DNA of 64,000 nucleotides from Azolla caroliniana (lineage: Eukaryota > Plantae > Polypodiophyta). The notes under the pieces were generated by a model. It searched no databases, was not told the origin of the DNA, and worked only from the letters and a program-made list of their open reading frames with translations. The position numbers and the translations under genes were made by a program. Below are positions 12,901 through 64,000 of this stretch, one piece after another. Where the stretch lies: positions 3,472,001 through 3,536,000 of the forward strand of contig JBHGNT010000021.1 in NCBI GenBank assembly GCA_043228905.1. The letters are read 5' to 3'. Each line of letters begins with the position of its first letter. Position 1 is the first letter of the stretch.

Positions 12901-14526
12901 GCACGCATTAGAGAGTGATCCAAAGGGTCCACACGTTAGAGAATGAGCAGCCTGACAAATTACCGCATTAGAAAATGAATGATCCAAAGGATCCATGCAT
13001 CAGTGTCTGATCAGAATAGTCCCTCTCTAATGCATTGATCTTGCAGAACTTTCATTCTCTGATACATTCATCCTTTGGAACATTCATTCTTCGAGTTAGA
13101 AACCACAGCTTTTGAATAAATGATATGCTTACCTAAACAAGGAGACTTGTACCAAGTTTGATGGCCACCACATAGTGGCTGGCTCGACAAGATGTGTACG
13201 GAATACGCCCGCCCACCCGAATCCTAGAACCTTTCCAGTTCAACACTCTAACAACTTCAGGCCAAAAAACCTTCTACCAATTACCACAATACACAATACA
13301 AAAGGGAAAATTAACAAAATACCACCCTAAACCCCAATTTCAAATATTTTAAAACATCCCTATGTGCAATTTCCTTGTATCTCCCTGCAAATTCTCTTTC
13401 CAAATGGGTATATTCAGGATCTCCTGAAGAATTGAAGGTATTTTGATCAATTCCCCCACAAACATCTCTATGCTCTATGCCCCTGCAACCTTTCTTTCTT
13501 GTGGGGGATTTCAGGAAGAATGAGATGCATTTTGGTAAGAAATAAAAGTGATCTGATACTCAAAATCTTTCAATTCAAAAGAGAAACAAAGAAAAAGCAA
13601 AAGCAAAAGTGAGTTAGTTATGTAACCTGTGTAGTAGCAACAATAATAAAGGCGACTGCAAAATTGAGGGTTTTCTTGTAAAAAATCTTCACAACAGTAA
13701 CGATATGAATAGCATAGACACTACCAGCACCCGCATTAGCAAAGATAGTGATAAGAACATGTTCTTTCATATTGAATGGGCCTGGATTAAGAGAAAATCG
13801 CCAATTTGTTCCTGGAAAGCGCATCTTCCGTGTTGGCAATGTGGCGGCCATGAAGCGTCCCAGAGGTAGAACAGCAATTTGGGCAGACACTGCCGTTATA
13901 CTCAGTGGCTCAGTGCGAAACCAAAAAAATTGGTTCAAAACGGAAAGCACAACACATGAAAGAAGACCTAATGTCCACATTCGGAATGTAACAACCGGAA
14001 TCGAAGGGTCGTCTGTGATAGGAACTGTTAATGCTACTTCTTCGATAGGCGATTGATCCTTCTCATACGGAAGCTCTAGTTCAAATTCTTCCTGTTCTTC
14101 CTCATAGTTTTGTTTTCCTTGCTTCTCCTGCCCCTCTTGTTCTTCTTCTCTTTCGACTTCCCAACTCTGTTTTGCCAAAAAGGGAATATTTTCTGGCGAG
14201 CGATAAGATCTGCCCATATTTTGTGTTTCCTGATGAGTAAAGGATCTATCCGTCTTCAGAACTGCCATGGAAGAAAACTTACTTGGATCATTTAACAAGG
14301 AGAAAGAGAAAAGGCATAACTTTTGACCTCCAAAACCAGATCTAATTCCCAACCATATGACCACATCATAGTATTAATGTTTCAGAAAAACAACCCAGAT
14401 ACATATACATACATAAATATATGCAATAATTCAGAAAACAAAACACATATATATAAATGTATGTATGTATATAGAGGGAGAGAGAGACAGAGAGAACTTA
14501 CGTGGGACAGACCTTCCATCCGCCAT
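9956..14526 (-). CDS. OPT: Oligopeptide transporter (OPT family), 794 aa, 7 exons
   Basis: Exons 14526-14502, 14261-13627, 13230-13133, 12513-11944, 11633-11378, 11174-10992 and 10573-9956, all GT-AG and in phase. Signature motifs [20 protein letters not shown] and [11 protein letters not shown]. The N-terminus [11 protein letters not shown] comes from a 25-nt first exon. Confidence 0.95.
12600..13092. repeat. Intronic ~30-bp minisatellite ending in an inverted copy (OPT intron 3)
   Basis: Direct units of GCATTAGAGAATGAATG..CCAAAGGATCCAT, then reverse-complement units at about 13024-13090. Confidence 0.75.
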
Positions 14527-19922: not shown

Positions 19923-24391
<4,469 letters not shown>

Positions 24392-43139: not shown

Positions 43140-44192
43140 AGGATAGTAGCTTCAGTAAGTTTTTTGTAGATACAGGACTTTGGTGGTAGACAATGATATG
43201 GTGATGTGGTCATGGAAGCATTTCTATTTGGTAAGGATGAGTGATGATGTTGTAGATTTTTATGAGGGGATGAGGACAACACATTCACTCTAATTTTGTT
43301 TGTACAAGATTTTTGCGGTGAATGAACAGATGGTTGATGTGGAAAATGAAGCACATTTTATTTTTGTAAAGGATGAGTGACGATGGTATAGGGGGATGAA
43401 GCATAATTTCATGAGGGGATTAGGAGAGTAATCTCATTCTATTTTTGTAGGTACATGTCCTTGGTGGTATACATCGAGATGGTTGATGTGGTCATTGAAG
43501 CAAATTTGCATATTTCATTTTTTTAAGGATGAGTGAACCATGGACTTGGGCAGTAAACAAACAAACGATTGATGTGGAAAACGAAGAATATTGTCTATTT
43601 TGGTAAAGGATGGGTGACGATGGTGTCGGCTGAAGAAGCATAATTTCATGAGGGGATCAAGAGAGTAGTGTCACTATGTTTTTTGGTACAGGTTCTTGGT
43701 GGTATAAATCAAGATGGTTGATGTGGACATTTAAGAAAATTGTGTATTTTTTAAGGATGAGTGAATCATGGTGGTGTTGGGGGCTGACGCAGTGTTGGGG
43801 GCTAACACAATGTTTTTATGAGGGTATGAGGATAGCACATTCACTCTATTTTTGTTTGTACAGGACTTCAGTGGCAAACGAACAGACAATTGATATGGAA
43901 AACGAAGAACATTGTCTATTTTGGTAAAGGATGAGTGACGATGGTGTCGGTGGAAGAAGCGGAATTTCATGAGGGGATTGAGAGAGTAGTGTCATTATGT
44001 TTTTGTTTGGTATCTACAGGATTTGCTATGCTATGACGAGATGGTTGATGTGGACATTGGGGGTAATCGGCGACATGTTGGTTGGGGAAAAGGAAGCATA
44101 TTTTCTTTGTTTGATAAGGATGAGTGATAACGTTGTTGGGGGCTGAAGTAGACTTTCATGAGGGGACGAGGAAAATAGAAGCATTTTCTTTT
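43140..44192 (+). repeat. Satellite array (about 7 units, mostly 135-175 bp, alternating variants)
   Basis: GATGGTTGATGTGG-type cores at about 43196, 43330, 43478, 43568, 43713, 43889 and 44040. The last ~300 bp is colinear with 7710-8005. Confidence 0.9.
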
Positions 44193-44321
44193 GCATGTGA
44201 TTGTTGTATTTGACGAGGTATATTCTGAATTAATATATCCAGAAGTCTGCGATTCAGAACTTCAACGCAATGCAAGTACACACATGTTGAAGGAAACAAT
44301 TGTAGGGGCAGCAAGGAAAGT

Positions 44322-45330
44322 TTGGTATTTACAAATGCAACACCCAATGATTATGTTGTTTTTGTGCTTTTGAAAGCTTGTGCTAAGCTGAAAGTTGTGG
44401 AAAATGGCCAACAGATACATGCACATATTTGTGGGAATAGGGAAGTGGAAAGTAATGCTTTTTCTTTAATGGACATGTATTCAAAATGTGGTATGATAGA
44501 TCAAGTCAGAGATGTATTCGATAAGCTCTCAGTTCGTGATGTGGTGTCATGGAATGCATTAATAGCACGACATGGTCTTCATGATTGATATTAGGAAGTG
44601 TTGGAAGGTTTTGAGCATATGCAATGTCAAAGGATCATCCCAGATGAATAGTTGATGTCATGTTGGCTCATTTGAAAAAGCAAAAGAGGAGCAAGGTGAG
44701 GACGTGTTGATCAAGTCAAGAAGATGCAACTTTTGGAGATGAAGTCACATGTGCATGCATCTTGAAAGCTTGTGGGTGCATTAGATCCGCAAACAAGGGC
44801 AACGAGATACATTTCGATGCTGAGAGGAAAGGGCTTTTTCGAAAAAACCAACTTGCTTGAAATACACTAGTAGAGATGATTCGAAATGTGGCTTCCTAAC
44901 AAAAGCAAAGGCAGTGTTTGACAAACTTCCCATATGTGATACAGTGACATGGAATACATTGTTCATAGGTTATGTGCACTATGAGAATGACGAGGAGGCC
45001 CTTAATGCTTTTGAGCAGATGCAAAAGAAGAGAATCTCTTCTAATTCTATCACATTTGTAGGTACTCTAAAAGCTTGTGCTAGCATTGGAGCAATAGAAA
45101 AGGGTAGAGAAATGCATGTAAAGATCGAGGAGATGGGGAGGCTAAAGAGAAACCAGGTTGTTGGCAAAGCATTGCTTGATCTATATGCTAAGTGTGGAGT
45201 CTTAGAGAAAGCATTTGATATGCTTCCAACTCGAAATATAGTCTCTTGCAATGTTCTGATTACAGGATATCATCAAGTTGGAGAAATTGAAAATGTGTTT
45301 TTTGTATTTGACCAGATGAGAGGAAATTGA
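44322..45330 (+). pseudogene. PLS-class PPR pseudogene
   Basis: LLKACAKLK...GQQIHAHI, LMDMYSKCG...VFDKLSVRDVVSWNALI, VFDKLPICDTVTWNTL, ITFVGTLKACASIGAIEKG and ALLDLYAKCG, interrupted by stops and frameshifts. Confidence 0.9.
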
Positions 45331-46394
45331 GTTTTACCAAAGCCGGTTGGAAATGCTTGTAGTCATACAACCATGGTAGATAAAGGTCAAATATATTGTG
45401 AAGCCATGGTGATGAGCAATTATTACATATGCTGATGAGCATGTGAGAACGAAAGAATAATGACGTAGTATCTATCCACATATGGATACATGGATGAACA
45501 ATGAGAAACTACAATTTAGTGTTTAAGCTAATGATCACATGAGATGGAAAGAAGATTCTTGTATGTGTTCACCGTTCTTTGTAGTTTTATACTCTGAGTC
45601 TTTGAGTTATTTTTTTCTTTTTTATTGGCCTATCACGGTGTCGTGAAGAATTTCAGCCAGAGGCGGAAACCGGGAAATATTGGCTACATCGGTGGGGTGC
45701 ACCATGTGCACTCACCCTTGTGTAATTGTGTGAATAATAGGGGTTAAGTTGGGATGAAGAATCCCATGTAAATCGGGATTTATCCCACATTGTAATGCAT
45801 CCCTCTCCTTGTTCTATAAAAGGAAGGGATGGTCCCTTGTAGAAGGGTTGCCCGTTTTGTGTTAGAGGGTATACCATTAGGTTTAGAGTTAGTTTTCTTC
45901 TTCTTCTTCTTGGCGGGGAAGTCGACCGTTGAGGGCTGTCTCTGCTAGGTCTCCTGTGCAAGACCCCACTCCGCGTGACGAGCCTGAGAGCTCCCCGGAC
46001 GGCGGCTTGGCAACAGACTATTGCTGTAACCTACCTACCCTACCATGGTCCGGCTCGAAGCCGGGGTTGCATTCTTTCCCTTGTAATACTTACATTTGCG
46101 TTTGTCTGTGCATATTCGTGTCTCTGTTGGTGTCGGGCGCTTCCCCTTTCCTGCGTTTCCTGTACATAAGGGCGTGAGTCGGGTCGGCTTGTGTGTGTGT
46201 GTGTGTGTGCGCGCGCGAGTCGGTGTCAAGCGCGCGCTCCCTCTCTTTCTCTCTCTCCCTTTGGTTGCTTCCGGAGTGCTTCTGGGATGCCCCGGAAACG
46301 GTGAAGTACGACTTCCTACGCTCCGTGACTCCCTAGTCCAAGACCCCTGTGGTCCCGCCTTCCTCCACGCACGCGCGTAACAACGCGATATCTT

Positions 46395-46411
46395 TGGTGA
46401 ACCCGACGTGA
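46395..46411 (+). promoter_or_regulatory. Primer binding site, tRNA-Trp
   Basis: TGGTGAACCCGACGTGA is the complement of the plant cytosolic tRNA-Trp 3' end (UCACGUCGGGUUCACCA, from recall). Confidence 0.85.
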
Positions 46412-49400
46412 AAGGCAGCAAGGGAGGATGGAGTCGGAAGACGACGACCTCGCGGCGATGGTGGCCGAAGTGGTGTTGGAGTCAGCACGAGTGGTGATGA
46501 GGCGAGAAGCAGTGCAACAAGCGGTTGAGCGAGTGGTCGAAAGAGTCGGCCGTTTCAATGGGGACAAAGTCCCATCTTACTTGGAAGCCTACAACGCGGA
46601 AATGGAGGAGCGAGACGTGGACGAAGCGTTGAGGCTGGAATTCTTCTGTCGGGCTGTCGCCGTCCGTATGCACGCGTAAGTAAAGGAGCTCCGACAAGCT
46701 CATAGTTCGTGGGAGGCCTTTGAAGAGGCGCTCCTGCAGGCATATGGAGGACGGCGGAAGAGCCGGGGACGACACGACTTTGACTAGTGGGTCGCATTGG
46801 CAAAGACCCACCGGGGCTCGGCTCTCGGAGCGGGAACAAGGTTTGGTGGGGACGGACAAGGTCCTATTGTTCGTCAGGTCGATCGACCGAGCGGAACGGG
46901 AGGCCATCGGGATGGAGCTCGAAGATGATGACGGAGTAAATGGGCTTACGAAGGACTGGTCGAAGGTCGGAAGGGTGTGCCAACGGCTAGACGATGAGCG
47001 AGCCGAGAAGGCTAAGTGGAAGACGCGCGACGGCTTGCCATCATAGTGGGAAGAGGCCGAACGGCAAAGGGAGCTGGCAAGGGTCAACGTTGGGGCCAGG
47101 ATTGCGGAGGCGTACACAACTCTCGAGGCGATGCTCGAGGAAGAGGAAAGATCGAGGCCCCAAGCTGAGACCGAGGAGACGGTCTTGCCCCACGAGATGG
47201 CGGAAGATCGGTACCACGGTACCACGGGAGAGGGTGCGGAACAAAACGCCCTCTCGACTTGCGGAGAATTGCCAACCGAGGACAGGGTCGAGAGCGGAGA
47301 AGAACCCTCCACACGGATTCCGGAGACTTCGGCGGTCATGCCCGTGTGCCGTCATGAGGCCGGAGAGAAGGAAGGCGCCGACGAGGAGTCCTGGCACGAT
47401 GCCAACGAAGAGGGATGGGAAACGGCCTGCGAGGAGGCCAAGGATGGAGGCGGCATGGGAAGATCGACATTCCGATTCGGATGGAGCAGAATTCGGTCGT
47501 CGATCGTTCGATCGGGGCCGTATTCGGCATGAAAGTGCCGATACGGAAGAGGGTGCGGGACGAGCGGTCCTCTTTTACATGGGGAGAAAGACCGACCGGG
47601 CGAAGGTCGGGAATTGGAAGGGAAGTGGTCAAGGGTTCAGAACGAGTTCGGAGAGGTCGGCACCAGAACCGAAACTACGGATATTGGAGAACCAAGCCCA
47701 GGCGGGGCTTGGTTGATCACAAACCAGATGCTTCTCACCATACGTACTTGGGAGCAGTACCCCGAATGAGCGTCCGCAAATCGTTACGGGACGGAAGCCC
47801 CACGTCCTATCCGGAGACTTCGGTAGTTTGGCCGACGTGGCAACATGAGACCGAAAGAGATGGAGGATGGAGGCGAGAACGCGAAGAGGAGAGAAACGAC
47901 GAGTTCGGGAGAAGTACAAGGGATGAAGAGGAGAACGAAGACTGGTCCTACAGGATCCCCACACCAGTCCGGAGACCCCGGCAGTTCGGCCAACGTGGCA
48001 ATGTGAGACCTAGGGAGAAGGCTGGTGGCGACAAGAGAATGGGACCCAACAATCTGGAGAAGGACGAACGGACCCGGACGAGAACCGGGCGGAGCGGACT
48101 CCCGGATGACCATTCCGGGAGGGAGGAAGAGAGTAGGCCTACGAAGAGGCCGAGGAGACGGTACGTTAGTACCACGGGAGAGGGTGCGGAGTAAACCGCC
48201 CTCTCGGCATGCAAAGAAGGAAGACCCGGGATAAGGGTCAGAGATATGGCAAGCTCGAGGAGGATCCTTCACACCGGTTGTACAGAAACCGGCGGTCGGC
48301 CCGAGAGCCGATGCGAGGCCTAAAGTGACGAACAGTGGCGGCGAGGGGACGAAGGCAAAGGGCTACGGATGGGCGGTCTACGGAAATCCTCACACCGATC
48401 CGGCGGTCGGCCGGAGAGCCGGCTTGAGTCCTATAGGAAAGGACGATGGCGGCAGGTGAATGTGACCAACAGAAGAGAAAGGCGAAAGCAGAGTGGAGCA
48501 GCTGTGACCTTACACACACCGATTCTAGAGACTCCGGCAACCAACGACAAGAGGAGGAGTGAGACCTAGAGTAAGGGACGGTGGCGGCGGCAAGGCGGGA
48601 AACCGAAGCTAGAAGGGGAGGTCCCACGAAGACACTCACACCCATCCGGCGGTTGGCCCGAGTGCCAGCGTGAGTCCTATAGGGGAGATCAGTGGCGACA
48701 GGAGAACGTGATCGGACGACAGGAGGTGACGAATGGCAAGGAGGTATGAGGCCGACAAGGTGGCTACGGACCATCTCAAACCTTCCGGCGAGGTGAGTGG
48801 GCGTAAGGAAGTCCGGTCCTACGAGATCCCCACACTTAACCAGAGACTCCGGCAGTTCGGCCAACGAGGCAACATGAGACCGAGAGAGAAGGTTGGTGGC
48901 GGTGGGACACGGGACCTGACTACACGGAAGACACGAGGAGAGTCTGGGAGGGACTCAAACAAAAGACACCTGGATCTCGGCAAGCGACGAAACGATGACC
49001 GGTCCTATGGGACCCTCACACTGATCCGGAGACCCCGGCAGTTCGGCCAACATGGCAACGTGAGACCTGGGGAGAAGGATGGTGGCGGCAGGGAACGGGA
49101 CCCAACGACACGGGGTAGCGGATCGGGAGTCGGTAAGACGGGGCGGACGAAGTGCGAAACCCTCACCGGCCGGTTACGGTTTCGGAAGTTGCCGGTAGGG
49201 GCAAACATGGGAGGTGTGCTGGGCCGAAAAGGCACACCGGGGACGGAACAAGTGTCTTGCAAGTGGCCATCGTGGGCCGGATCGAAGCGTGACTACTGGA
49301 CGGTGTTCGGCACGGGCGGTGCCGAACAAAGGAAGCGGAAGACGGCACAAGGGAGGTGCCGGGAACGGGGTGACGGGTGCCTTGTGGACTGCACAGGGTC

Positions 49401-50444
49401 GGAGTCAGGGGATGACAAGAGAGGCCGGAGGAGGATCCTTCACGGTCGCTTCGTAGATCTCGGGAGCTCCATCGAAGTAACGAAGATTGACACGACAAGC
49501 CCGGGGTGACAAGCTGGTGGGGGTGAGGGGGACGACGGCAAGTGGGAAACTCAGGACCTGTTGCAACAACATGAGTGGTCGACGGAGGCCAAGCGGGCCA
49601 CTACGGGCATTCTCCAAGCGTAGGACATCGGGCATACGGCGGAGAACGGAGCGTGCATACGGCCGAACAAGGGCCAGTGGAAGTACGCATACTACGGAGA
49701 TCGCGGCGAAGGACCCATCGACGGGTCGAACGAGCCTACGGAGAGGTAAGCGCGAAGGGAGAACTGCAGCCGACGGTTCAAACTGGCACCGAGCCGGGAT
49801 GCGGATTACGGAAGACCGGTTTCTCACCGGCCGAAATCTCTCACCCTTCACCGGATATGGCACGTACTAGTGGACGTGCGGTTAGGTGGGGGCGGATGTC
49901 GTGAAGAATTTCGGCCAGAGGCGGAAACTGGGAAATATTGGCTACATCGGTGGGGTGCACCATGTGCACTCACCCTCGTGTAATTGTGTGAATAATAGGA
50001 GGGTTGTCTCTGCTAGGTCTCCTGTGCAAGACCCCGCTCCGCGTGACGAGCCCGAGAGCTCCCCAGACGGCGGCTTGGCAGCAAACTACTGCTGTAACCT
50101 ACCCTACCATGGTCCGGCTCGAAGCCGGGGTTGCATTCTTTCCCTTGTAATACTTACATTTGCGTCTGTCTGTGCATATTCGTGTCTCTGTTGGTGTCGG
50201 GCGCTTCCCCTTTCCTGTGTTTTCTGTACATAAGGGCGTGAGTCGGGTCGGCCTGTGTGTGTGTGTGTGTGTGTGTGCGCGTGAGTCGGTGTCAAGCGCG
50301 CGTTCCCTCTCTTTCTCTCTCTCCCCCTTCGGTTGCTTCCGGAGTGCTTCTGGGATGCCCCGGAAACGGTGAAGTACGACTTCCTACGCTCCGTCACTCC
50401 CTAGTCCAAGACCCCCGTGGTCCCGCCTTTCTCCATGCACGCGC

Positions 50445-51233
50445 TATCATGTTGTTACGCGCGCGCGTGGAGAAAAGCGGGACCACGTACGCCTCTGCAA
50501 TCCTGGCCTCAACGCCCCTTGCCAACTCCCTTTGTCGTTCGGCCTCTTCCCGCTGTGATAGCACGCCGTCGCGCTCCTTCCTCTTAGCCTTCTCGGCTCG
50601 CTCATCATTTAGCCGTTGGCACACCCTTCCGACCTTCGACCAGTCCTCCGTAAGCCCATTCGCTACATCATCGTCTTCGAGCTCAATCCCGATGGCTTCC
50701 CGTTCTGCTCGGTCGATCGACCTGACGAACAATAGGACTTTGTCCACCCCCACCAAACCTTGTTCCCGCTCCGGAAGCCGAGCAAGTCGTTGCTCGAACT
50801 CTCGGAACGCCTTGGTCGTGCCCTGGTGGGTCTTTGCCGATGCTACCCACTGGTCGAAGTCGTGTTGTCCCCGGCTCTTCCGCCGTCCTCCGTATGCCTT
50901 CAGGAACGCCTCTTCGAAGGCCTCCCACGAACTATGAGCCTCACGGAGCTCCTTTACTTCCGCATGCATCCGGACAGCTACAACCCGACAGACGAACTCC
51001 CGCCTCAACGCCTCGTCTATGCCACGCTCCTCCATATCCGCATTGTAGGCTCCCAAGTAAGATGGGACTTTGTCCCCGTTGAAACGACCGACTCTTTCGA
51101 CCACTCGCTCAACCGCTTGTTGCGCTGCTTCTCGCCTCATCACCACTCGTGCCGACTCCAACACCACTGGTGCACCCCGCCGATGTAGCCAATATTTCCC
51201 GGTTTCCGCCTCTGGCCGAAATTCTTCACGATA
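50445..51233 (-). mobile_element. 789-bp mini-element: LTR 5' tip, gag segment and LTR 3' tip, nested in LTR2 of A
   Basis: TSD GCGC at 50441-50444 and 51234-51237. About 66 bp of the LTR start is joined to gag (VLESARVVMRR...IAEAY), which is joined to about 42 bp of the LTR end. Termini are TA...TA. Confidence 0.85.
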
Positions 51234-52139
51234 GCGCGTAACAACGCGACAACGGCTACAACCTTTATAAGGTTGTTAGACTAATCATTTTGTCATGTAT
51301 GTGGAATTTCTACTAATGAAGAATATGTTTTTGGGAAAAAAAAAACTTTGTGCACCATACTCAAATTTTTGAGCTGAAAAATCTATTGCGACCATAGTAT
51401 GAACCATATGTACCATACGTACAATCATTCGAGTATGATAAACACCCAGAAGAATGGTAAATACCATACTTTTGGATTAACTATTTATTATGAGGTAAAT
51501 AAACCTAAAAAACGGAATTTTAAACAAAAAATAACCTTAAAAAAAGGGGGAAAAAAACTGAAGAATGTTTGAATAATATTTGCATTCGTTTTCCAACGTA
51601 GGAAAACGAATGTTATGCTAGATGAACACGAAGTTTACGGACTATGATTGTGACCTCAATCGATTATGACGGGATTATGACTCACTTTAGATAGTAGGCT
51701 TACCAAAACAATAATCCTTGTAAGTATTAAATTATTGTATCATATTCAAAGGTTTAAGAACTAATTTAGATCACGACTCCGTTACATGGAGTGGCCAAAC
51801 CAGTTCAACTTTGAAACTCCCAAATTGGTTAAATTTGCTTAATCGGTTTGGTTTGGACAAGAACAAACCGGTTAAGCTAAAATTGTACCATTGTTAGGGA
51901 GAGGGAGGGAGAGATTTTTATTAATATTTCTAAACCTTTTACAAAGGTTATTCTGACTCATTGTAACATATTCCTAGAGCTAAATCTTAAGCATATTTTC
52001 TTTTATTATAATTAGCACAAAAGGGCAATAGAAGCATGTGAAAGGAACCAAAACGGTTTCCAACTTGTAGAAAAGGGCAAGTGCTCTATTGTAAAAGCGG
52101 CCTTTGGGTGCCCTAACTTTGGGGCTACCTTTTGGCTAT

Positions 52140-53410
52140 CTACTTGGAAGTTTGCGAGGCGGTGGTTTGGGCCGTATGTGGTGACAAGCGCCAACGACAA
52201 TGCGGTATACCATCTAGCAAAGCTCGAGGGGACGAGGATCATGGTACCGGTTGTGGGTAAACAGATCAAAGCGTTTAAGAAGCGACACGAGTCGGAACCA
52301 GATCCGGAGGTGGAAGAAGAAGATGACGAGACTGAGGAGCCGGACGAGGACCTGATCGATGACGGATTGGAGGAGGAGGAGTAAGGAATGACCAGGAATC
52401 CTCACTGCTTCACTAGATCAACACATACTGAAGGATGTGCGGTTTGGTGGGGGTGGATGTCGTAAAGGATTCTGGCCATATGGGGAAAAACGGAGTCGGA
52501 TACATGTGAACGGGGGTGTACAAGGACGCACACAAATGAGTCCTTACATGCACATAAAACCTTAAAAATAACATAGGACTAATAAGTACTAGACAATGTG
52601 ATTTGGATGGGTACTTTAATGACCCACAAATTGAGAGGAATAAAAGTGTGTGATGGGAAAAAATTATGCAAAAGGATCTCTGACGAAAATGGTTGTCTTT
52701 ATGACTGATGTAACGACCTCTCCTTGAGCCATAAAGAGAGAGGACCAAGGGAGAAAAAGTGAGCCATTGACGGTTTTGGAGAACAAAGTGATGTCAGATT
52801 GAGCTCTGCAGGTTTCTAGCTTTTGTTCTGTCATTCCAATGAGCTTCCGCGATGCCTCTATTTGCGCTGGAAGCCCTTGTGCTCCTGATTAGAGGCTCAC
52901 TAGTGCCCGCGTGGGTGTGTTAAGAGCTCGAAGCTCTGTTACTAGCTGAGTCTGGGTGTATCTCCCTCTGTCTCAGTTTAATTGATTATCTCTGTTGTAC
53001 GCTGATTTCTCTGTGTCATTGTGTGAGTCTTTGTCTCTACTTGTATTCTTGTCTCTGTTCCCTCTCACCTATGTGTGTACTCGAGCATCTGAGCCCATGA
53101 GCTCATCGTTTTTACCCGGTGAGAGGTCCATAATTGTTTGGGTGTTAGGACAGTTTGAATGGCTAAGCATGTGTGCTCATCGCACCAGAATCCGACGTCA
53201 ATGTTGGAGCAGAGTGTGTGTCCAAGCCCATGTGTTGACCATCCGGTCTCTAGAGACGTTTTGGATTAGCTACGCGTCTTCGCCGCGTTTCAGTGAAGTT
53301 ATCCGGAAATGAGCCAGGTAGTCATTCTCTCCCACTTCTCTTATTGGTTCCTTCTTCCGAGACCCTGGTGGTCCCCCGGTGGTCCCGCTCTATTTCAACG
53401 TATACTCACA
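52140..53410 (+). mobile_element. 5'-truncated gypsy element C: integrase tail, PPT and LTR (52458 to about 53410)
   Basis: KFARRWFGPYVVTSANDNAVYHLAKLEG...KAFKKR, PPT GCGGTTTGGTGGGGGTGGA, then TGTCGTAAAG. Confidence 0.85.
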
Positions 53411-54067
53411 AAAAACCGGGATAGTGTGAATGAGGGTGTGCAAGTATGCACATGAACAAGGACTAATGTACAAAGAAATGTAGATATAGGTAGAGTATTT
53501 ATAAGTACTAGGTAGAGTAGTTAATGGGTACTTTAATGTCCCATAGAAAGAGAGGAATAATGGGATATGATGTGAGAGAGAATTGAGGAAGAATCGCTAA
53601 CATAAAATGGCTCTCATTAAGCATGATGTAACGGCCTCCCCTTGGTGCTATAAAAGGGGAGGTTTGAACTGTTGCAAGGGGGTACCGCGTTTGGGAGGGA
53701 GGAAGTGTTGCCATATTTCAGAGTTGACTGTTCACTTCCTGTCTTTGTCGTTGTATTGCGAGGCCTCTATTTGCGTTGGAAGCCCGAGTACTCCCGATCA
53801 GAGGCTCGCTGATGTCTGAGGGGTGTGTGAGTTGAGAGCTTAAAGCTCTATTGTCGACCGAGTCTGGTTGTACCTCTCTTTGTATGTTAGTTAATCGATT
53901 TGTCTTGTTGCATCTAGTTTTTTTTGTTTCTTGCGTGCCTCCTAATTTCGGTCACATTCTCGTCTCTGTTTCCCCTTTACCCATGTGTATACCCGAGCAT
54001 CTGAGTCGTGTGCTCTTCATCCGGTGTCCAAGGACTGGTCTGGAACAGTATACGCATTTGAGCCCAT
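53411..54067 (+). mobile_element. Partial LTR related to LTR C, cut by element D
   Basis: Colinear similarity with 52490-53100 (GAGCTTCCGCG/TTGCGAGGCCTCTATTTGCG.TGGAAGCCC, GAGTCTGG, CGAGCATCTGAG). TATAAAAG at about 53649. Confidence 0.75.
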
Positions 54068-57055
54068 TGTCGTAGTATTCCGTGTGGATGTGTCGAAACG
54101 GGGCGGGACCACGAGGGTCTTGGACCAAGGAGCCGGTGTGAGTAGGAAGGTTGTCCAGATCAGTTAGCGATTACGAGTCTGGTCCGAACTAGTTCCCGGA
54201 TGTCGGACGGTGAGCACACACACTCGGGTACGCGTATTGTTCTTTACCGGGAGCCGGCTGGCAGCGATGAGCTCTTGGCGCCATGCAAACAGAAACACAA
54301 CACAATAGGGATAGACTAGAAACAAGAACACGGGAAATCCGAAACACACGGGGAGACTCAACAAACCAACGATTAACAAAGGAAATTGGAAGGATTACAA
54401 CCGACCGTGGCCGGCAAAAGAGCTTTGACCTCACTGTAAATACTCACACACACTAGCGGGTCTCCAATCGGGAGCACACAGGCTACCAGCTCGAAGCGGA
54501 GGCCTCGCAGTATGAGGATAGGGGAAACCGGAAAACGGGGAACAAGAAATAAGCCTACAGAGCTTGATCCAGAAGCACTTCGTCCTCCCAAAATGTGTAT
54601 ACCCAAACAATCTCAAACCTCCCCCTTTTATAGCACAAAAGGGAGACTATTACATCGTGATCAATGTCAGAGATTCTCCCCGATTTCTTCACATCAAATC
54701 CCCGTATCCTCTCTATCCGTGGGGGGTCTTTAAAGCCCCATTAAATCCTAATCCCTACTGCTTACTAGTCCTATGCTATTTACATATGTTTGTACATAAA
54801 GACTTAAATTTTGTGTGCATCTGTGCACACACCCGTTAATGCGCATCCAGCTCCGTTTCTTTCTATGGCCGGAATCATTCACGACATCCATCCCCACCAA
54901 ACCGCACATCCTCTGGTATGTGCCAATTAGTGTAGTTGTGGGGATTCCGGCGTAGCTTTCACTCGTCCTCTCCTGGATCGTCACTGATTAGGTCTTCTTC
55001 CAGCTCCTCGCTCTCACTCCCGCCTTCTCCCGGCTCTAGATATGGTTCTGGCTCGTACTGCTTCTTGAAGGCCTTTATCCGCTTCCCCACCACCGGTACC
55101 GCAATCCTCGTCCCGTCAAGCTCGACAAGATGGTATGTCGCATTGTCATTGGAGGTTGTCACCACGTACAACCCGAATCACGTCCTCGCAAACTTCCGGG
55201 TCGATTGGTGCTGGTTACAAGGTTGTTGTTGTAGACCAACACCCAATCGTCCTCTTTGATCTTCTCCGGCCGGAGTCGGTGTGTTCGGTCGAACCGGCCC
55301 TTGTTCTTCTTCCATGCCTCTTCTATCATTGCCGTCGCTCGTCCCACGTCCTCCGGCCTTTGCTCGAGCTGTTGAATTCATGCCGCAAGCAACTCTTCCC
55401 GGCTCACCTCTCCCGACCAGTTGACCGCCAACCACAAAGAAATCGTCCTCTGCACTGGCATGATCGGCTTCTGTCCGAACATCAGCTCAGTCGACATGTA
55501 TCCCGTCACCGAAATGTGCGTAGTTCGGTCAGCCCATAAAGCGTAAGGCAGTAGTCTCGCCCAGTCCATTGCATGCCCTCACTAATGCTTTCACAATTGG
55601 TCCGTGTCTATGCTTGATCTTCCCATTGGCTTCTGGATTGTATGTCGTTGTGAGGGACAACTTGACCCCTAGCCTGTCAAACAACTCTTCGGCTTCTTGC
55701 GCATCTAGCTCCCCTTGGTCGGCCACGATCCTACTCACACACCCATACCGGCAAATCACATCTTCGATCAGGAACCGACATACGGCTGCGGTTGTCTTGT
55801 TCGTAAATGCTCAGCCCTTCACCTGATTCGTGAGGTCTTCTCTCGCAAGCACTAGGTACTGTATCTTTCCTACACCCATCGACATTGTTACTAAATCGAC
55901 CATCTACTTGAAGTGTATGGCTGGCGGGTAGGTCGGGTGTAGCTCGTCGCGGTGCCGGATACCGGAATGCATTTGACAGCTTTTGCATGTTGCCACGAAA
56001 TGATGCGTGTCGCGATACATTCCAGCCACCAATACTTCTCCTTCAATTTCTCGAATGTGGCCCATGTTCCCCGGTGTCCGGACCAAGGGCCCTCATGGAA
56101 TTCTGATAGGAGCACCGCTTGCTCTTCTTTCTTCGTCACCACCCAGAGTGGTGTGCCAGTTCGTCTCTTTAGGTGTTCCATATCTTACCGTTGTCGAGAT
56201 ATTACGCAAGTGCGTGTGAAAATGAGGCGGGACCGCGGGGGTCTCGAACCAAAGAGCAAGCAAGGGAGGAGAAAGAGAGAGAACCGGCTACGCAGGACCG
56301 GGGATACGCAGGGACACGGCCCTTCAGCACGGAGAACGCGAACAGACACCGACACAGACAGATGCGAATGACTAAATATGTGTATTAACAAAAATGGCTA
56401 ACACGACTACAACCCTCGATGGGGCACAGGTTGGTTACAACCGAACAGGCCGGCGAACAGATGCCGATGCCTGTTCGCTTCGACGCACAAACGGGGTAGC
56501 AGGTCGGAGGTGCTGCCGGAAGCACTCGGCGTTCCTCGAAACAGCGCGAGCCTCCTCGGAACCCTGCACAGGAGCTATGGAGCTCGAGAAGGAAGGAAAC
56601 ACAGAGAGAGAGAGAGAGAAGCGTCCAGAAACGGTCCGGCAGCACTTCGTCCTCTCCGCCCGAGATCCCTGCAACAGCTCTTTCCTGCTCCTTATATAGG
56701 CCGACGAGCAGGCCGTCATGTCAGCTTTATTCCCTGTCCCTTTTGGACAGGGATCCGCTCCGTTTTTCACGCATCCGCGTAGTTACGCCGCCGACTCGTA
56801 CAGTTCGCGCGCGCGACCGAAAAGACTGTTCGCGCAGTCTTTGTCTCCACTTGAGTTAGGGCCCGTTCCTGCCGATTATCCTCCTAATTCGCTTCTATGT
56901 ACAACTTGGAGCGTGCGCGCGTGAAGAACCGGTTCCCACGCCTTGGTGCGCCGATTCCGCCTATGGACGGTTTTCTTCACGACATCCGCCCCTACCTAAC
57001 CGCGCATCCTCCGGTATGCGCCAAGAGAGTTGGGACGGAGAAAACCGGCCCGTCT

Positions 57056-60000
57056 TCATTCCTCGCCCGTCGGTTCTTCCTCGTTTCCGGATCGTTCGTC
57101 ACTGCTGACTAGGAGAGCCGGGTCCGGCTCGTCGTCATGTCGCTTCTTGAACGCTTTGATCCGCTTCCCTGCAACCGGTATCGCCACTCTCGTGCCGTCA
57201 AGTTCCGCCAGGTGATATGTCCCGTTGTCATTGGCGCTCCGTACCACGTAAGGCCCGAACCACCTTCGTGCAAACTTCCGTGTAGCCCGGTGCTGGTTGT
57301 CGAGGCTGCTATCGTAGACGAGCACCCAGTCACCTTCTTCGATTTTCTTCGGTCGGAGCCGGTGCGTTCGGTCGAACCTGGCTTTGTTCTTCTTCCTCGC
57401 CACCCGGAGCCTCTCCGCAGCCAGTTCCACGTCCTCCGGTCTCCGCTCGAGCTGTCGTATACGCGCGGCCAACAACTCCTCCCGGCTCATCTCGTCCCTC
57501 CAGTCGACCGTTGCCCACGAGGAGATCGTCCGTTCCATCGGCATGATCGGCTTCTGGCCGAACATGAGCTCCGTCGGCATGTACCCGGTTACCGAACTGT
57601 GCGTGGTCCGGTCTGCCCACAAAGCATAAGGTAGCAGCCGCGGCCAGTTACCGACTTGGCCTCCGCATGCCCGAACCAACGCCTTGACGATCGGTCCGTG
57701 TCCGCGCTCCACCTTTCCATTCGCCTCCGGATTGTACGCAGTGGTGAGCGAGAGCTTGACTCCCAGCCGGTCGAACAGCTCCGCGGCTTCTTCGGCGTCC
57801 AACTCCCCTCGGTCAGCCACGATCTTCCCGACGCACCCGTACCGGCATATCACGTCCTCAATTAGGAACCGGCATACGGCCGCGGTCGTTTTGTTCGGAA
57901 GGGCCCGGCCTTCCACCTGGTTCGTCAGATCCTCCCGCGCTAGGACCAGGTACCGCATTTGTCCCACTCCCATTGGCATCGTTACCAGATCTACCATCCA
58001 TTTGAAATGGATGGCCGGAGGGTACGTAGGGTGAAGCTCGTCTCGATGTCGGACTATGGAGTGCATCTGGCAGCTCTCGCAAGTTGTCACGAACTGATGC
58101 ACGTCCTGGTACTGCCCCGGCCACCAATACTTCCCCTTCAGTTTCTCAAACGTAGCCCAAGTTCCACGGTGTCCAGCCCAAGGGCTGTCGTGGTAGGCCG
58201 TCAGCAGCTCCTCCTGTTCTTCCTTCATCGCCACCACCCGGAGCGGAGCGCCGTCCCTCTTCTTCGGGTGCTTCCATAGATAGCCATCCCGGAGGAAGAA
58301 CCGGTACGCTTTCTTCCGGATCCGGTTGGCCTCGTCCTTCGTCCATGACGCATCGGGCGTCATTGTTTTCAAAAACCCACCGATCTGCAGCCACTCCCCG
58401 TCGTACTTGCTCGCGTCGAAGTCGTTGAGCGCCGGAGTGCTTGTTCCGCCGGTTGTTACATACGCAGTCTCGAAAAAGTCCACGCCGACCTCTTCGTCCT
58501 CCGAGACCATGCCGCCCTCGTCATCGAATCTCGCCCTTGAAAGCATGTCGGCCATGGCGTTGTCTTTCCCGGAAATGTGTCGTATTACCGGGTCTAGGGA
58601 CTTGATGTACGCTATCCACCTGAGCATTGCCAGGTCCGGCGTCGCGCATCCGGAAACCATGCCGAGAATCGGCATGCAATCCGTCTCTATGATTACCTCC
58701 GTCCCGATCAGATAGTCCTTGTCGGCCTTCACCGCCGAAACGATACCCCAGAGTTCGCGTTCGCTGAGGACCTTCGCGCCGAATCGGATCGGAAACCGAT
58801 TGCCGTCCTCGTCTTCTTGGTTGACGACCCACCCGATTCCGGTCGGACTCGTGTCAACCGTCACGTACACTGGGGCGCCCTTCCTGTAGACGGCCTTTCG
58901 GAGCGCCGGTGCTGCCGAAAGAGCCTCCTTCAGCTTCCGGACCGACTCCGTGTGCTTGTCTAGCCACTCGAATCTTCGCCCTTTTCTCAATAATCCGTAT
59001 AACGGCTCCGCAACGTGGGCGTAATGCGGGATCCATATGTGGTAGAATGCGCATGCCCCCAGGAATCTTCGTACTTCCGTGACCGAGCTGCAGTCGGGCT
59101 TCATCGCGGAGATGGCTTCCACCTTTGCCGGAGACGGTTTCCGGCCATATGGCCCACATAAGTGTCCGACCACCATGATTTCCGACTGCCCGAAGGCTGA
59201 TTTCTCCCCCGAGAAGGTGAGTCTCGCATCCTCTAGCCTTTGCAGCACCTTCTCGCAGTCGTCGATGTGCGTCGCCACGAATCGCCGGCATCCGTCCGGC
59301 CCGATCGTCTCGTCCTTTTCTTCCACCGGGCATCCCTTGATCGGGATGTCGTCCAGAAACGGCATGGTGATGTCCGGGATACAGTCCCTCAGAACCTTGT
59401 TCATCGCATTCACCATGTGGGCCACCGAGTTGGTCCCTCCTTGCGGCAGTGTACACATCCGAACTAGGCCGAGGGGAGTTCGCATCGTCGTAATGTCTCT
59501 GCTCTCCACGGCTAGCTGGAACTGGTCGTACCCTGAGTATAGATCCCCGACCGAGTAAATTGACCTTCCGGCGAAGGCCTCCGCGAACTCGTCTGTGGTC
59601 GGTCCGATCCCTGCGTTCCGAATGGTCACTCGATTGACCGGCTGCAGGTCCTGGATGAAGCGCAACGAACCGTTTTTCTTCGGTACGGTAAACCATCGAT
59701 TCGAATATGGGGCGCTCGACGGCTCGAGAATTCCCATATCAACTTTCTGCCTCAGCAGCTCCATCAACTTCGGGATGTGAGCTCTCGGAACCGGGATTGG
59801 CTTGAGATTCCACGGTACATGCGGTACCGTGAATATCACCATTGGCTCCACGATCGTCGGGTCAACGCACCCGATTTCCTCCGGCGAGAATGCGAAGGCT
59901 TTCCCGTGCCTTCCGAGCATTCTCCGAAACCGGTCTTCCTCCGCCGGCAGTAGGAACCCGCCCCCACCGATTTTGAGCTCTCGGAGCGTCTCGTCGGTGA

Positions 60001-60523
60001 AGGTGTGTCCTATGCAGGCCGGATCTCGTAGACTAGGGTCCGATGCAACCCCTTTGATTCTCGACGCGCTGTCCTCCGGTAAGGGTGCCGCGACTGGCCT
60101 TACCTTCCGGTCCACAGTCTTGTACTTGGTGCTTACGTGGGCCGTCCGAACTGACTCGAGCCCTCGACCGAAGTCCGCGATGACTCCGTACATCTCCTCG
60201 GAACACACCGGTATCGTCCGGTCTTCGTTAAGGCCTTCTTCGACTACCTTTCCCAGCATTCCCAAGGTGTCGTCGAATGAGACCGCCTCCACGGCTCCGT
60301 TGATTTCCTCGTCGGGGCCGAGAACTCCGCACGCTCGAAGTCTCCCCTCCGCCTTTGTCTTCTCTCGGCCGCCGATGCCGACTATCGTACACGCTCCGCT
60401 GTCGGAGAAGCAAAATACCCTACCTGTCGTACACGGTTTTATCGTACAGATGTGGGGTTTTCCCGGAGCATCCGGACTGTCGCGGCCCCACGCCTTGGCA
60501 GCCCTCTCTAAAAATCCTCTCGG
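57056..60523 (-). CDS. pol: Pol (RT-RNase H-integrase) of element B, -1 frame, no ATG of its own near the start
   Basis: The frame is open from 60523. RT: DLYSGYDQ, LPQGGTNS, FLDD. RNase H: VDTS, ELWG, ETDC, ADMLSR. Integrase: H-H-C-C, D-D-E and GPY. Confidence 0.93.
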   Translation of the reverse strand, partial: PRGFLERAAKAWGRDSPDAPGKPHICTIKPCTTGRVFCFSDSGACTIVGIGGREKTKAEGRLRACGVLGPDEEINGAVEAVSFDDTLGMLGKVVEEGLNEDRTIPVCSEEMYGVIADFGRGLESVRTAHVSTKYKTVDRKVRPVAAPLPEDSASRIKGVASDPSLRDPACIGHTFTDETLRELKIGGGGFLLPAEEDRFRRMLGRHGKAFAFSPEEIGCVDPTIVEPMVIFTVPHVPWNLKPIPVPRAHIPKLMELLRQKVDMGILEPSSAPYSNRWFTVPKKNGSLRFIQDLQPVNRVTIRNAGIGPTTDEFAEAFAGRSIYSVGDLYSGYDQFQLAVESRDITTMRTPLGLVRMCTLPQGGTNSVAHMVNAMNKVLRDCIPDITMPFLDDIPIKGCPVEEKDETIGPDGCRRFVATHIDDCEKVLQRLEDARLTFSGEKSAFGQSEIMVVGHLCGPYGRKPSPAKVEAISAMKPDCSSVTEVRRFLGACAFYHIWIPHYAHVAEPLYGLLRKGRRFEWLDKHTESVRKLKEALSAAPALRKAVYRKGAPVYVTVDTSPTGIGWVVNQEDEDGNRFPIRFGAKVLSERELWGIVSAVKADKDYLIGTEVIIETDCMPILGMVSGCATPDLAMLRWIAYIKSLDPVIRHISGKDNAMADMLSRARFDDEGGMVSEDEEVGVDFFETAYVTTGGTSTPALNDFDASKYDGEWLQIGGFLKTMTPDASWTKDEANRIRKKAYRFFLRDGYLWKHPKKRDGAPLRVVAMKEEQEELLTAYHDSPWAGHRGTWATFEKLKGKYWWPGQYQDVHQFVTTCESCQMHSIVRHRDELHPTYPPAIHFKWMVDLVTMPMGVGQMRYLVLAREDLTNQVEGRALPNKTTAAVCRFLIEDVICRYGCVGKIVADRGELDAEEAAELFDRLGVKLSLTTAYNPEANGKVERGHGPIVKALVRACGGQVGNWPRLLPYALWADRTTHSSVTGYMPTELMFGQKPIMPMERTISSWATVDWRDEMSREELLAARIRQLERRPEDVELAAERLRVARKKNKARFDRTHRLRPKKIEEGDWVLVYDSSLDNQHRATRKFARRWFGPYVVRSANDNGTYHLAELDGTRVAIPVAGKRIKAFKKRHDDEPDPALLVSSDERSGNEEEPTGEE
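60452..60517 (-). promoter_or_regulatory. Predicted -1 ribosomal frameshift signal
   Basis: G-GAT-TTT (60517-60511), then spacer TAGAGA, then a pseudoknot with stems GGGCTG/CAGTCC and GTGGGG/CCCCAC. Confidence 0.75.
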
Positions 60524-62634
60524 TTATCGGAACCGAGGGAGTCGCGGTTACGCTCGTGGTTCGGCCTAACCGTCAAAAACTGGACCGAATGGCGCCCGTC
60601 CTGGCTCTTGACCCGCGCATAGGCCGAACCATTGTCCAGCACCTTGGTCTCCATTCGCGCCGCCGTGATGTACGGCTCTCCCAGTATGACCGGATGCGAA
60701 GACGTCTCCTGCACGAAGAAGTGCTGGTCAATCTCGACGTCGCCGATCTTGACTCGCACATTCGGACAGGCCCCGTGCAGTTCCTCGGTGGCGCGCGTTG
60801 CTGCCCTTATTTTCCACCCGTGCTTGGTGTTGATCGGCCATTTGCCCTTCTTATAGAAGTCCATGGACATCAAATTGATCTCCGATCCGTGGTCTACCAA
60901 AGCTATCACCGGTTCCTGGACATCGCCGATCTTCACCGGGGTTTCCGTGGTCGCTCGGGCCCAGTGCGGTCTCGAATAGTGGCTTTCCGCCCACTCGTCT
61001 CCCAGCGCCATGTCGTCTAGGTGCGTCGTCCGCACTTCCACCGGTCTTTCCGGTTCTGTCTCCGTTGACAGCCTCTTCCGTTTCACCAAGTCCACGATGG
61101 AGTCGTGGAACTCCTTCTTGGCGATTCCCAGCACCTCCCGTAGCGACAGCTCCACCTTGCTGTCGAGGATCCGTTCCTCCAGGACCTTTCGTAAGTCCGT
61201 GGTTCTTTCTATCTCCGTCCCCAGACGGTACCCGCCCTTCTGGGGTTTATCTTGCGTACCGGCCCCGCCGGCTTCGTCCCGTCGTGGCCCGGACCGGGTC
61301 TTGTATCGTTGTGAGGGCCCGGTCGTCCCGGGTTTCCCCACCCGCTTCTCTTCTACCAGAGCCTCGTAGTTCCGGCAAGCGGCTTCCACGAAGCCCGTCT
61401 TTTCCTCGACCGGGTCGCTCCACCCGGTCATCTCCCGTACCCGTTTCTCCGCATGGTCCGATTCCTCCCTCTTCATCCTCGTATCGGCAAGGCCTTCCAG
61501 CACCGTCGGCCAGAATCCGGCTTTGCTTTCCCTTCGGGCCTCGTTGCCCCCGACTCGAATACCGGCCGACGCCGAGTAGTGGACGGTTTCCGCATGTCGG
61601 GCCGCCGCCTCTTCCATCAACCTCTTCATTCCGCCTCACCCGTCGTTTCGGTTTAGGGCCCTTCTCGTGTCGTTGGCGTGAACCCGGCCTTCCCATAGGT
61701 ATACCACCCGGTTCCTCAGCGCCTCTGCGAAATCGCCGCAGTCCTTCCGAATGTGGCCGACTTCATCGCACCACATGCACCTGTTTCCTGCCGCCGGCCG
61801 TCGGTCACGAGCCGGTTCGCCTCCTTCCCTTCGGGCCTGCGCGATTTGGAGGTCCTTTATCGCCTTCGTCAATTCCTCCAGCGCCGCTCCTCCGGTTGAG
61901 CCTCTGACTACGCCGGTCGAAGCCGAACCGGTATCCAACCACTCTCGGGTCTCTTCCTTTCGCACCTGTGGCGCTGGTTCGAGCTTCCTTGCTGCGACCG
62001 AGCCCGACCCGGTTGCACCGTTATCCGCCCATTCTCGCCGTTTGTCGAAACGGCCACAGACCTTCCTGACAGCCGCCCAGTCGGTAGTGAGCCCGTCTTC
62101 GGTTTCCAGCAAGAGGCCCACGTGCTCCCGATCCCGTTCGTCGACCGACTTGACAAACAGCAAGACCCGGCTCGTGTCCAGGATGGTTCGGTCGAGCGCC
62201 GAAAGGCGCGCAAAGTTTTCCTCGAACTCCCGGAGGAGCGCCGACGCGTTTCTTCCCTTCCCCGGGGACTCCACCCATTCCATGAACCTTCGCTTCGAAA
62301 GCCGGAGCGCGTCGTCTAGCCCGTATTTCTCTAGGAGCCGACCTTCGAACTCCTCCCAGGTACGGCTCTCCGTCCGCACCTCGAGCACCTCCGCATGGAT
62401 GCTCGGCATCGCCACTCGCGGAAATCCGGCAAGACGCCTTTCTTCCGGAATGTCCCGCATCAACATTTCTGCACCGTAGGACGCCAGATACTTCGTGGCA
62501 TCCCTCCCATCGAACCGGCCGATCGTGCCGACGACCGCCTCAATAGCTCTGTCGAGGGCACCGGTGCCCTCGCGCGCGTTTACAATCCGATCCACGGCCG
62601 AAGCCATGGCCTCTGCGAGATCCGACCCCCTCAT
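60508..62634 (-). pseudogene. gag: Gag-protease frame of element B, interrupted by one in-frame TGA (61638-61636)
   Basis: ORFs 61636-62661 and 60508-61629 share a frame. CCHC knuckle CMWCDEVGHIRKDC. Aspartic protease ALVDHGSEINL...VILGEPY. Confidence 0.88.
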
Positions 62635-64000
62635 CTTCTGCTCTTCTGCCGCCTCTTTCACGTCGGGTTCACCAAATATGTCGAGATATTACGCAAGTGC
62701 GTGTGAAAATGAGGCGGGACCGCGGGGGTCTCGAACCAAAGAGCAAGCAAGGGAGGAGAAAGAGAGAGAACCGGCTACGCAGGACCGGGGATACGCAGGG
62801 ACACGGCCCTTCAGCACGGAGAACGCGAACAGACACCGACACAGACAGATGCGAATGACTAAATATGTGTATTAACAAAAATGGCTAACACGACTACAAC
62901 CCTCGATGGGGCACAGGTTGGTTACAACCGAACAGGCCGGCGAACAGATGCCGATGCCTGTTCGCTTCGACGCACAAACGGGGTAGCAGGTCGGAGGTGC
63001 TGCCGGAAGCACTCGGCGTTCCTCGAAACAGCGCGAGCCTCCTCGGAACCCTGCACAGGAGCTATGGAGCTCGAGAAGGAAGGAAACACAGAGAGAGAGA
63101 GAGAGAAGCGTCCAGAAACGGTCCGGCAGCACTTCGTCCTCTCCGCCCGAGATCCCTGCAACAGCTCTTTCCTGCTCCTTATATAGGCCGACGAGCAGGC
63201 CGTCATGTCAGCTTTATTCCCTGTCCCTTTTGGACAGGGATCCGCTCCGTTTTTCACGCATCCGCGTAGTTACGCCGCCGACTCGTACAGTTCGCGCGCG
63301 CGACCGAAAAGACTGTTCGCGCGGTCTTTGTCTCCACTTGAGTTAGGGCCCGTTCCTGCCGATTATCCTCCTAATTCGCTTCTATGTACAACTTGGAGCG
63401 TGCGCGCGTGAAGAACCGGTTCCCACGCCTTGGTGCGCCGATTCCGCCTATGGACGGTTTTCTTCACGACACCGTTTCGTAGGAAGAACCGGTATGCCTT
63501 CTTTCGGATCCGGCTTGCTTCGTCTTTCGTCCATGTCGCATCCGGCCCCAACATGCTTAGGAACTTACCAATCTGGAGCCACTGCCTGTCGTAATCGTTC
63601 CCATCGAACTCGTTCAAGATCAAAGTGCTCCACTTTTTTGCCGACATTCGAGCCGACTCGAAGAAGTCCACGCCGACCTCTTCGTCTTCCGACACCATGC
63701 CATCCTAGTTCTCGAACCGTGCTCTTGAGAGCATATCAGCCATGGTGTTGTCCTTTCTGGGGATGTGTCATATCTCCGGCTTCAGGGCCTTGATGTACGT
63801 GATCCACCGAAGCATCGCCAGGGCCGTAGATGCACATCCGGAAATCAAACTGAGAACCGGTAGGAAATTTGTCTCGATTATCACTTCTGTCCGGATCATG
63901 TAGGCTTTATTGTCCTTTACCGCCGAAAGGATACCCTAGAGTTCGTGGTTAACCTGGGTGTATCCTCGTTGCCGCTCGCTTAGCACCTTCGCACCGAACC

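What the first reader, a model, noticed from the sequence alone, without database searches (positions are those of the whole stretch)
45635..63475. CpG-centred 4-bp target sites: apparent sequence-specific integration by this gypsy family
Seen: element A has TSD ACGG, in an AT-rich, CpG-poor flank. Element B has TSD ACGG in its own orientation. The mini-element has TSD GCGC. The one visible flank of element D reads ATGG, which is ACGG after one CpG deamination. The consensus is R-CG-S. Known: most plant LTR elements make 5-bp TSDs with weak preference, while some Drosophila errantiviruses (e.g. ZAM) make specific 4-bp CG-rich TSDs. Inference: a chromodomain-less integrase that targets CpG, possibly methyl-CpG. 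That would steer copies into other GC-rich copies, explain this nest and spare AT-rich genic DNA. The sample is only 3 full sites and 1 half site.
Basis: partly seen in the sequence, partly recalled or inferred. Interest (0 to 1): 0.85.

Follow-up and report, generated by a model that had tools for sequence, protein, structure and literature searches.

The report
CpG-targeting Phygy-type fern retrotransposons
These nested jumping genes, likely from a fern, insert at CG pairs and duplicate four bases, a habit already published for the moss lineage called Phygy that they likely belong to, so the finding is real but mostly known; whether they sense methylation is untested.

Summary
Elements A, B and the mini-element carry 4-bp duplications ACGG, ACGG and GCGC. 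In related metagenome contigs 11 of 11 further insertion flanks have CG at the same two positions, and contigs of three sequencing runs leave the LTR start with majority letters ACGT. The trait is published: Neumann et al. 2019 list the moss non-chromovirus lineage Phygy with 4-bp TSD (100%), motif NCGN and a tRNA-Trp primer. Element B matches that profile, has no chromodomain or extra RNase H, and groups with Riccia elements; I had no labelled Phygy sequence, so clade membership is untested. All 14 sites fit V-CG-B, the edge rule known for 4-bp retroviral intasomes. Nothing here bears on methyl-CpG reading, and AT-rich DNA is not spared. What is new is small: a likely fern host and the V-CG-B refinement.

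The parts
45635..45638 (+). Left TSD of element A, ACGG
45639..46390 (+). 5' LTR of non-autonomous element A (starts TGTCG, ends CGATA)
   Evidence: 23 differences in 558 aligned columns to the 3' LTR
46395..46411 (+). Primer binding site of A, 4 nt behind the LTR; read as tRNA-Trp from recall
   Evidence: anticodon identity not confirmed by a tool (empty)
49897..51251 (+). 3' LTR of A behind a purine tract, 190 nt shorter than the 5' LTR, interrupted by the mini-element 14 nt before its end
50441..50444 (+). Left TSD of the mini-element, GCGC
50445..51233 (-). Mini-element, 789 nt: first 64 nt of an A-type LTR, a gag piece, last ~40 nt of the LTR; no PBS or purine tract; ends TATCG...TGATA
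51234..51237 (+). Right TSD of the mini-element, GCGC
51252..51255 (+). Right TSD of A, ACGG
52016..53423 (+). Element C remnant: integrase C-terminus, purine tract, 3' LTR from 52458; right end degenerate, flank not countable
53424..54067 (+). LTR fragment E, homologous to C's LTR; the target of D
54064..54067 (-). Visible flank of D, ATGG in own orientation (CCAT on +)
54068..54886 (-). 3' LTR of element D
55060..56187 (-). Decayed integrase region of D, the target of B; D continues at 63476-64000
56188..56191 (+). Left TSD of B, CCGT
56192..56984 (-). 3' LTR of B, 793 nt, one difference to the 5' LTR
57056..60523 (-). B pol frame, 1155 aa: RT, RNase H, H2C2 and DDE integrase, weak SH3, acidic tail; no chromodomain, no extra RNase H
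60508..62688 (-). B gag and protease frame, split by a stop near 61636
62658..62674 (-). Primer binding site of B, same sequence as in A
62679..63471 (-). 5' LTR of B
63472..63475 (+). Right TSD of B, CCGT

Best explanation
This is a nest of chromodomain-less Ty3/gypsy retrotransposons, likely of the Phygy lineage and likely in a fern, whose insertions duplicate 4 bp centred on CG, most likely because the integrase itself selects that target by sequence and shape. Inferred mechanism: a two-fold symmetric intasome cuts with a 4-bp stagger, which needs a sharp bend at a central pyrimidine-purine step; this integrase accepts only CG there and, like other 4-bp integrases, disfavours T at the first and A at the last duplicated position (V-CG-B). 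Methylation is probably not required. Since such sites are about seven times denser in the GC-rich elements than in the CpG-depleted host DNA, copies often land in each other, but lone CpGs in AT-rich DNA are used too. A and the mini-element have no pol and would have relied on integrase supplied in trans or lost their pol after insertion.
For: Shown: 3 of 3 full TSDs NCGN; 11 of 11 non-PPT LTR starts in 58 family loci have CG at -3/-2, product of local CpG frequencies 1.5e-16; loose ends at the LTR start read A-C-G-T by majority in 34, 29 and 11 contigs of runs X5, X3, X9; 14 of 14 V-CG-B against a background share of 0.41-0.53 among CG sites, P(11 of 11) 5e-5 to 8e-4; no chromodomain or extra RNase H in B or four relatives at E<=1; integrase in a clade with Riccia elements, SH-aLRT 99. 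Published: Phygy 4 bp (100%), NCGN, tRNA-Trp 81%; PFV consensus with TSD VYRB, central YR unstacked, T and A disfavoured at the TSD edges; ZAM integrase binds its CG-rich target directly in a fly, which lacks CpG methylation (recalled).
Against: No labelled Phygy sequence was available, and no named moss protein appeared among the 120 listed hits of either search or the 30 clusters looked up. B is 7280 bp, below Phygy's range of 7656-9968. The 11 new sites are half-sites, so they show CG position but not TSD length. V-CG-B was noticed after seeing the first nine of them. The read-based majority lines have only 0.40-0.51 overall agreement, give no per-site counts and exclude flanks that begin with T. 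The tRNA-Trp reading is recalled. No methylation data and no integrase experiment.
Confidence: 0.72

Rival explanations
1. The integrase, or a host partner, reads methyl-CpG, so that copies are steered into methylated DNA.
For: The element DNA is methylated by its mutation signature (A LTR transitions at 12 of 91 CG, 5 of 55 CHG, 3 of 179 CHH sites); host DNA is CpG-depleted; 4 of 11 metagenome sites and 2 of 3 full window sites lie in family DNA.
Against: Nesting is already expected from site density alone (42.8 against 6.1 per kb); 7 of 11 sites showed no family match and several are lone CpGs in AT-rich DNA; no methyl-binding domain in Pfam; ZAM shows that CG-rich specificity can be intrinsic.
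Confidence: 0.13
2. The elements are a separate 4-bp, CG-targeting lineage (a sister of Phygy or an unnamed clade shared with liverworts, Chara and fungi), not Phygy proper; the targeting mechanism is the same.
For: Named relatives are Riccia, Chara and Smittium, no moss; length below the Phygy range; Phygy was defined from one moss.
Against: Three rare traits coincide with Phygy (4 bp, NCGN, Trp primer); TatI, the other 4-bp Trp-primed group, needs an extra RNase H that is absent here; Selgy uses tRNA-Ala; Phygy has been annotated in a liverwort.
Confidence: 0.13
3. Chance or misplaced element ends.
For: Only three full sites in the window, one inside a CG run.
Against: LTR pairs, colinearity of D with B and 11 of 11 outside sites.
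Confidence: 0.02

Closest known systems
Phygy (non-chromovirus Ty3/gypsy; Neumann et al. 2019, PMC6317226; passages, section 9 and supplementary files 3 and 4 read)
   Same: 4-bp TSD, NCGN motif, tRNA-Trp type PBS, no chromodomain, no extra RNase H, coding region fills the internal part
   Different: Host is likely a fern, where Phygy was defined as specific to Physcomitrella; B is 7280 bp, under the listed range; outer positions are not free here (V-CG-B); clade membership not tested
Ginger1 DNA transposons (Bao et al. 2010, PMC2836005; passages read)
   Same: Gypsy-type integrase near Athila/Tat, TGT ends, 4-bp CG-centred TSD: CCGG 75%, CCGT/ACGG 24%, all within V-CG-B
   Different: Animal DNA transposons with inverted repeats; narrower motif; here ACGG/CCGT 5, ACGC/GCGT 4, GCGC 2, ACGT 2, CCGG 1 of 14
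4-bp retroviral intasomes, PFV and MoMLV (Serrao et al. 2015, PMC4422553; passages read)
   Same: 4-bp stagger, central YR, T and A disfavoured at the TSD edges (VYRB)
   Different: Their preference is weak and any YR serves; here the centre is CG in 14 of 14
ZAM errantivirus (PMC2527525 and PMC3276498; passages read)
   Same: 4-bp TSD, CG-rich target, specificity ascribed to the integrase
   Different: Target CGCGCg plus a second binding site; insect errantivirus; no relation shown here
TatI and Selgy (Neumann et al. 2019)
   Same: Non-chromovirus, 4-bp TSD; TatI also tRNA-Trp
   Different: TatI has an extra RNase H in 100%, absent here; Selgy uses tRNA-Ala and is about 5 kb; no TSD motif listed for either

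Membership tests
Ty3/gypsy LTR retrotransposon | LTRs, PBS, purine tract, order PR-RT-RH-INT | tested here: met
   best solved relative Ty3 Gag-Pol, E 1.5e-50
Phygy | 4-bp TSD | tested here: met
   3 of 3 full sites; definition
Phygy | NCGN target motif | tested here: met
   14 of 14 sites; majority ACGT in three runs
Phygy | tRNA-Trp primer binding site | tested here: inconclusive
   The same PBS stands in A, B and 58 of 121 loci; its match to plant tRNA-Trp is recalled; a search for such a tRNA gene found nothing
Phygy | No chromodomain, no extra RNase H, no extra ORF | tested here: met
   Pfam at E<=1 on B and four relatives; ORF map
Phygy | Length 7656-9968 bp (descriptive range) | tested here: not met
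   B is 7280 bp; the authors call size of little weight for classification
Phygy | RT-RH-INT falls in the REXdb Phygy clade | not testable with these tools
   Additional files 1 and 3 too large to read; no named moss hit; tree holds no labelled Phygy
TatI | Extra archaeal-type RNase H | tested here: not met
Selgy | tRNA-Ala PBS, about 5 kb | tested here: not met
   B 7280 bp; PBS read as Trp from recall
Chromovirus | Chromodomain at the integrase C-terminus | tested here: not met
   only a weak SH3 match, then an acidic tail
Errantivirus (ZAM-like) | env ORF and CGCGCg target | tested here: not met
   pol ends 72 nt before the 3' LTR, no room for env; at most the mini-element site resembles CGCGCg

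The most novel reading that the evidence does not exclude
V-CG-B targeting is an old property of one integrase clade that spans Phygy-like elements of ferns, liverworts, charophytes and fungi and the animal Ginger1 transposons, and these integrases read the methyl mark on CG: a chromodomain-free route into methylated DNA, and a natural sequence-plus-methylation-specific integrase.
Probability: 0.1. Interest if true: 0.75.

Novelty: new member of a known kind. Interest (0 to 1): 0.24.

Why it matters
It extends a one-line observation for a single moss (NCGN in Phygy) to a very young family in a likely fern and sharpens it to V-CG-B, linking it to the bending rule of 4-bp intasomes and to Ginger1. 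A strict CG requirement predicts self-nesting in a CpG-depleted genome without any chromatin reader. It makes one open point testable: whether CG choice needs methylation. It is not a new kind of system.

Tried and rejected
No whole genome is held, so the genome-wide harvest and D's other flank could not be had. A fifth half-site, GTGT behind C, was dropped: C's end is degenerate and the C/E junction resembles C's own LTR start, so it may be a deletion joint. Whether D's ATGG was ACGG stayed open. Of 121 metagenome loci, 63 lacked the longer PBS and were set aside; of 21 LTR starts in the other 58, 10 followed a purine tract and are not insertion flanks; two more mutated starts (L014, L065) also followed one; 11 loci with room for a start gave none. 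Viral and prokaryote collections gave no relatives (the 21 loci fetched had no match). No Rfam match. No tRNA gene matching the PBS. The mini-element's two junctions are absent from all 142 loci. The Atlas look-up with homologue P0327 gave only generic integrase clusters. A labelled Phygy sequence was sought in supplements without success. No fold or complex was run: neither would decide target specificity. The tree is the quick one; the careful search did not finish.

Full report
Anatomy. The window's first 45.6 kb are AT-rich and CpG-depleted and hold plant genes; from 45639 on it is a GC-rich nest. One exon of the oligopeptide transporter gene has its best identity, 80%, to Adiantum nelumboides, against 75% or less for the seed-plant hits listed, so the host is likely a fern; this rests on one exon. 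The nest holds A (45639-51251, +, no pol similarity, no long ORF), a mini-element in A's 3' LTR, remnants C and E, D (-, cut by the window end) and B (56192-63471, -) inside D's integrase region. B's LTRs differ at 1 of 793 positions, A's at 23 of 558.

Observation. The three duplications are ACGG, CCGT (ACGG in B's orientation) and GCGC. For A and B only length 4 matches; for the mini-element lengths 2 and 4 match and the comparison with A's intact 5' LTR decides for 4. D's pol is colinear with B's pol across B's site once four bases are set aside. Chance for three central CG is about 1e-4, for any shared central dinucleotide 3.4e-3. D's flank is ATGG as stated; its origin from ACGG is compatible but not shown.

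More sites. A scan of metagenome contigs for LTR end plus PBS gave 121 loci, 58 with the longer PBS; their gag is up to 96% identical to B's. A scan for LTR starts found 21, of which 10 follow a purine tract. The other 11 have different flanks and read GCGC, CCGT, CCGG, ACGC, ACGC, CCGT, GCGT, CCGT, ACGC, ACGT, ACGT: 11 of 11 with CG at -3/-2 (product of local CpG frequencies 1.5e-16, with a floor of 0.01). They are half-sites. Eleven further loci had room for a start but gave none. Contigs of public runs that leave the reference exactly at B's LTR start read A-C-G-T by majority and then lose agreement: 34 contigs in X5, 29 in X3, 11 in X9. These rows give no per-site counts, omit flanks beginning with T, and runs of organism A may include the window's source.

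The motif. R-CG-S fits 7 of 14 sites, 4 of the 11 new ones. The first position is A7 C4 G3 T0 and the last T6 C5 G3 A0, so all 14 fit V-CG-B, while only 41-53% of CG sites in three backgrounds do; P(11 of 11) is 5e-5 to 8e-4. I saw this pattern after the first nine sites, but it equals a published rule: PFV's TSD consensus is VYRB, four retroviruses with 4-bp TSDs disfavour T and A at the edges, and the central YR step is unstacked by a sharp bend (PMC4422553, passages). W stands two bases before the TSD in 11 of 14, in line with that paper but weak.

Where they land. Four of 11 outside sites lie in family DNA, as do B, the mini-element and D. V-CG-B sites are 42.8 per kb in the nest and 6.1 per kb in the host part, which predicts nesting without a chromatin reader. 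Seven of 11 showed no family match, two flanks are 31-33% GC, and A lies 309 bp behind a PPR-like ORF. AT-rich DNA is under-used at most, not spared.

The protein. B's pol has RT, RNase H, H2C2 and DDE domains, a weak SH3 match and an acidic tail; no chromodomain and no extra RNase H at E<=1 in B or four relatives. Named relatives are Riccia (about 55-62% over pol), then Chara and Smittium. In a quick 50-row integrase tree B lies in a 22-row clade with six Riccia rows, support 99, with Chara and Smittium outside. No named moss protein appeared in the rows listed.

What is known. Neumann et al. 2019 (PMC6317226; passages, section 9, supplementary files 3 and 4) state that Phygy elements prefer NCGN and tabulate 186 elements with 4-bp TSD (100%), tRNA-Trp 81%, 7656-9968 bp, no extra domain. 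Jedlicka et al. 2019 (PMC6911290, passages) confirm 4 bp as Phygy's commonest TSD and report Phygy nested in Tcn1. A liverwort genome paper annotates Phygy (PMC12885004, passages). Ginger1 transposons, close to Athila/Tat integrases, duplicate CCGG (75%) or CCGT/ACGG (24%) (PMC2836005, passages). ZAM targets CGCGCg, its integrase binds that site, and its TSD is 4 bp in 3 of 3 cases (PMC2527525 and PMC3276498, passages). I found no report of Phygy in ferns (search listings 14, 29, 43, 59; passages of PMC9916801 and PMC13469084), none of constrained outer bases, and none on methylation dependence (listings 30, 76). Neumann's Additional files 1 and 3, which I could not open, hold the per-element TSDs and sequences and may already contain the V-CG-B pattern; subscription journals are not searched.

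Mechanism. Shown: 4-bp stagger, fixed CG, edge bias, absence of a chromodomain. Inferred: direct and shape readout by a symmetric intasome. Untested: methylation. The elements are methylated after insertion, as the transitions between A's LTRs show (CG 12 of 91, CHG 5 of 55, CHH 3 of 179), but that says nothing about the target at the time of insertion. An unreviewed note from this scan reports NCGN duplications in a fungal nest; I did not test it, and it is a lead only.

Verdict. Real, well supported, and in substance already described for Phygy. It works like Phygy; membership is likely but its phylogenetic criterion could not be tested. New member of a known kind; interest 0.24.

Noticed in passing
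window 50445-51233: The mini-element keeps only the two LTR tips and a gag piece, with no PBS or purine tract, yet has a clean TSD. Either two deletions after insertion or a DNA substrate joined by integrase. Both ends read TA in place of TG/CA; with the GCGC flank both changed cytosines lie in CHG context, which suggests deamination. Its junctions are absent from 142 loci.
   Followed up: partly
window about 61636 and about 58760 (- strand): B, despite nearly identical LTRs, has a stop between gag and protease where L018, L023 and L026 have one open frame of 709-730 aa, and an RNase H nine residues shorter than four relatives: likely a defective copy moved in trans.
   Followed up: partly
window 60508-60523; L018, L023, L026: Gag-protease and RT-RH-INT lie in overlapping, different frames in B and its relatives; Neumann's table lists the organisation of Phygy as not determined.
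   Followed up: partly
window 46391-46394, 62675-62678; loci: The PBS stands 3-5 nt behind the LTR end (the search pattern allowed only that range), mostly 4 nt, longer than the usual short spacer (recalled).
   Followed up: no
L018/L019: One contig holds three LTR starts each behind a purine tract and two LTR-PBS junctions: a tandem array sharing LTRs or a collapsed assembly.
   Followed up: no
window 1019-2776, 9956-14373, 20785-23536, 44229-45330: Host genes by eye from ORF translations: a 2-oxoglutarate dioxygenase, an oligopeptide transporter (confirmed), a plastid-type GAPDH and PPR-like fragments.
   Followed up: partly
window 7292-7973 and 43290-44193: A dispersed AT-rich repeat family with units of about 150-320 nt occurs at both places; unexplained.
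   Followed up: no
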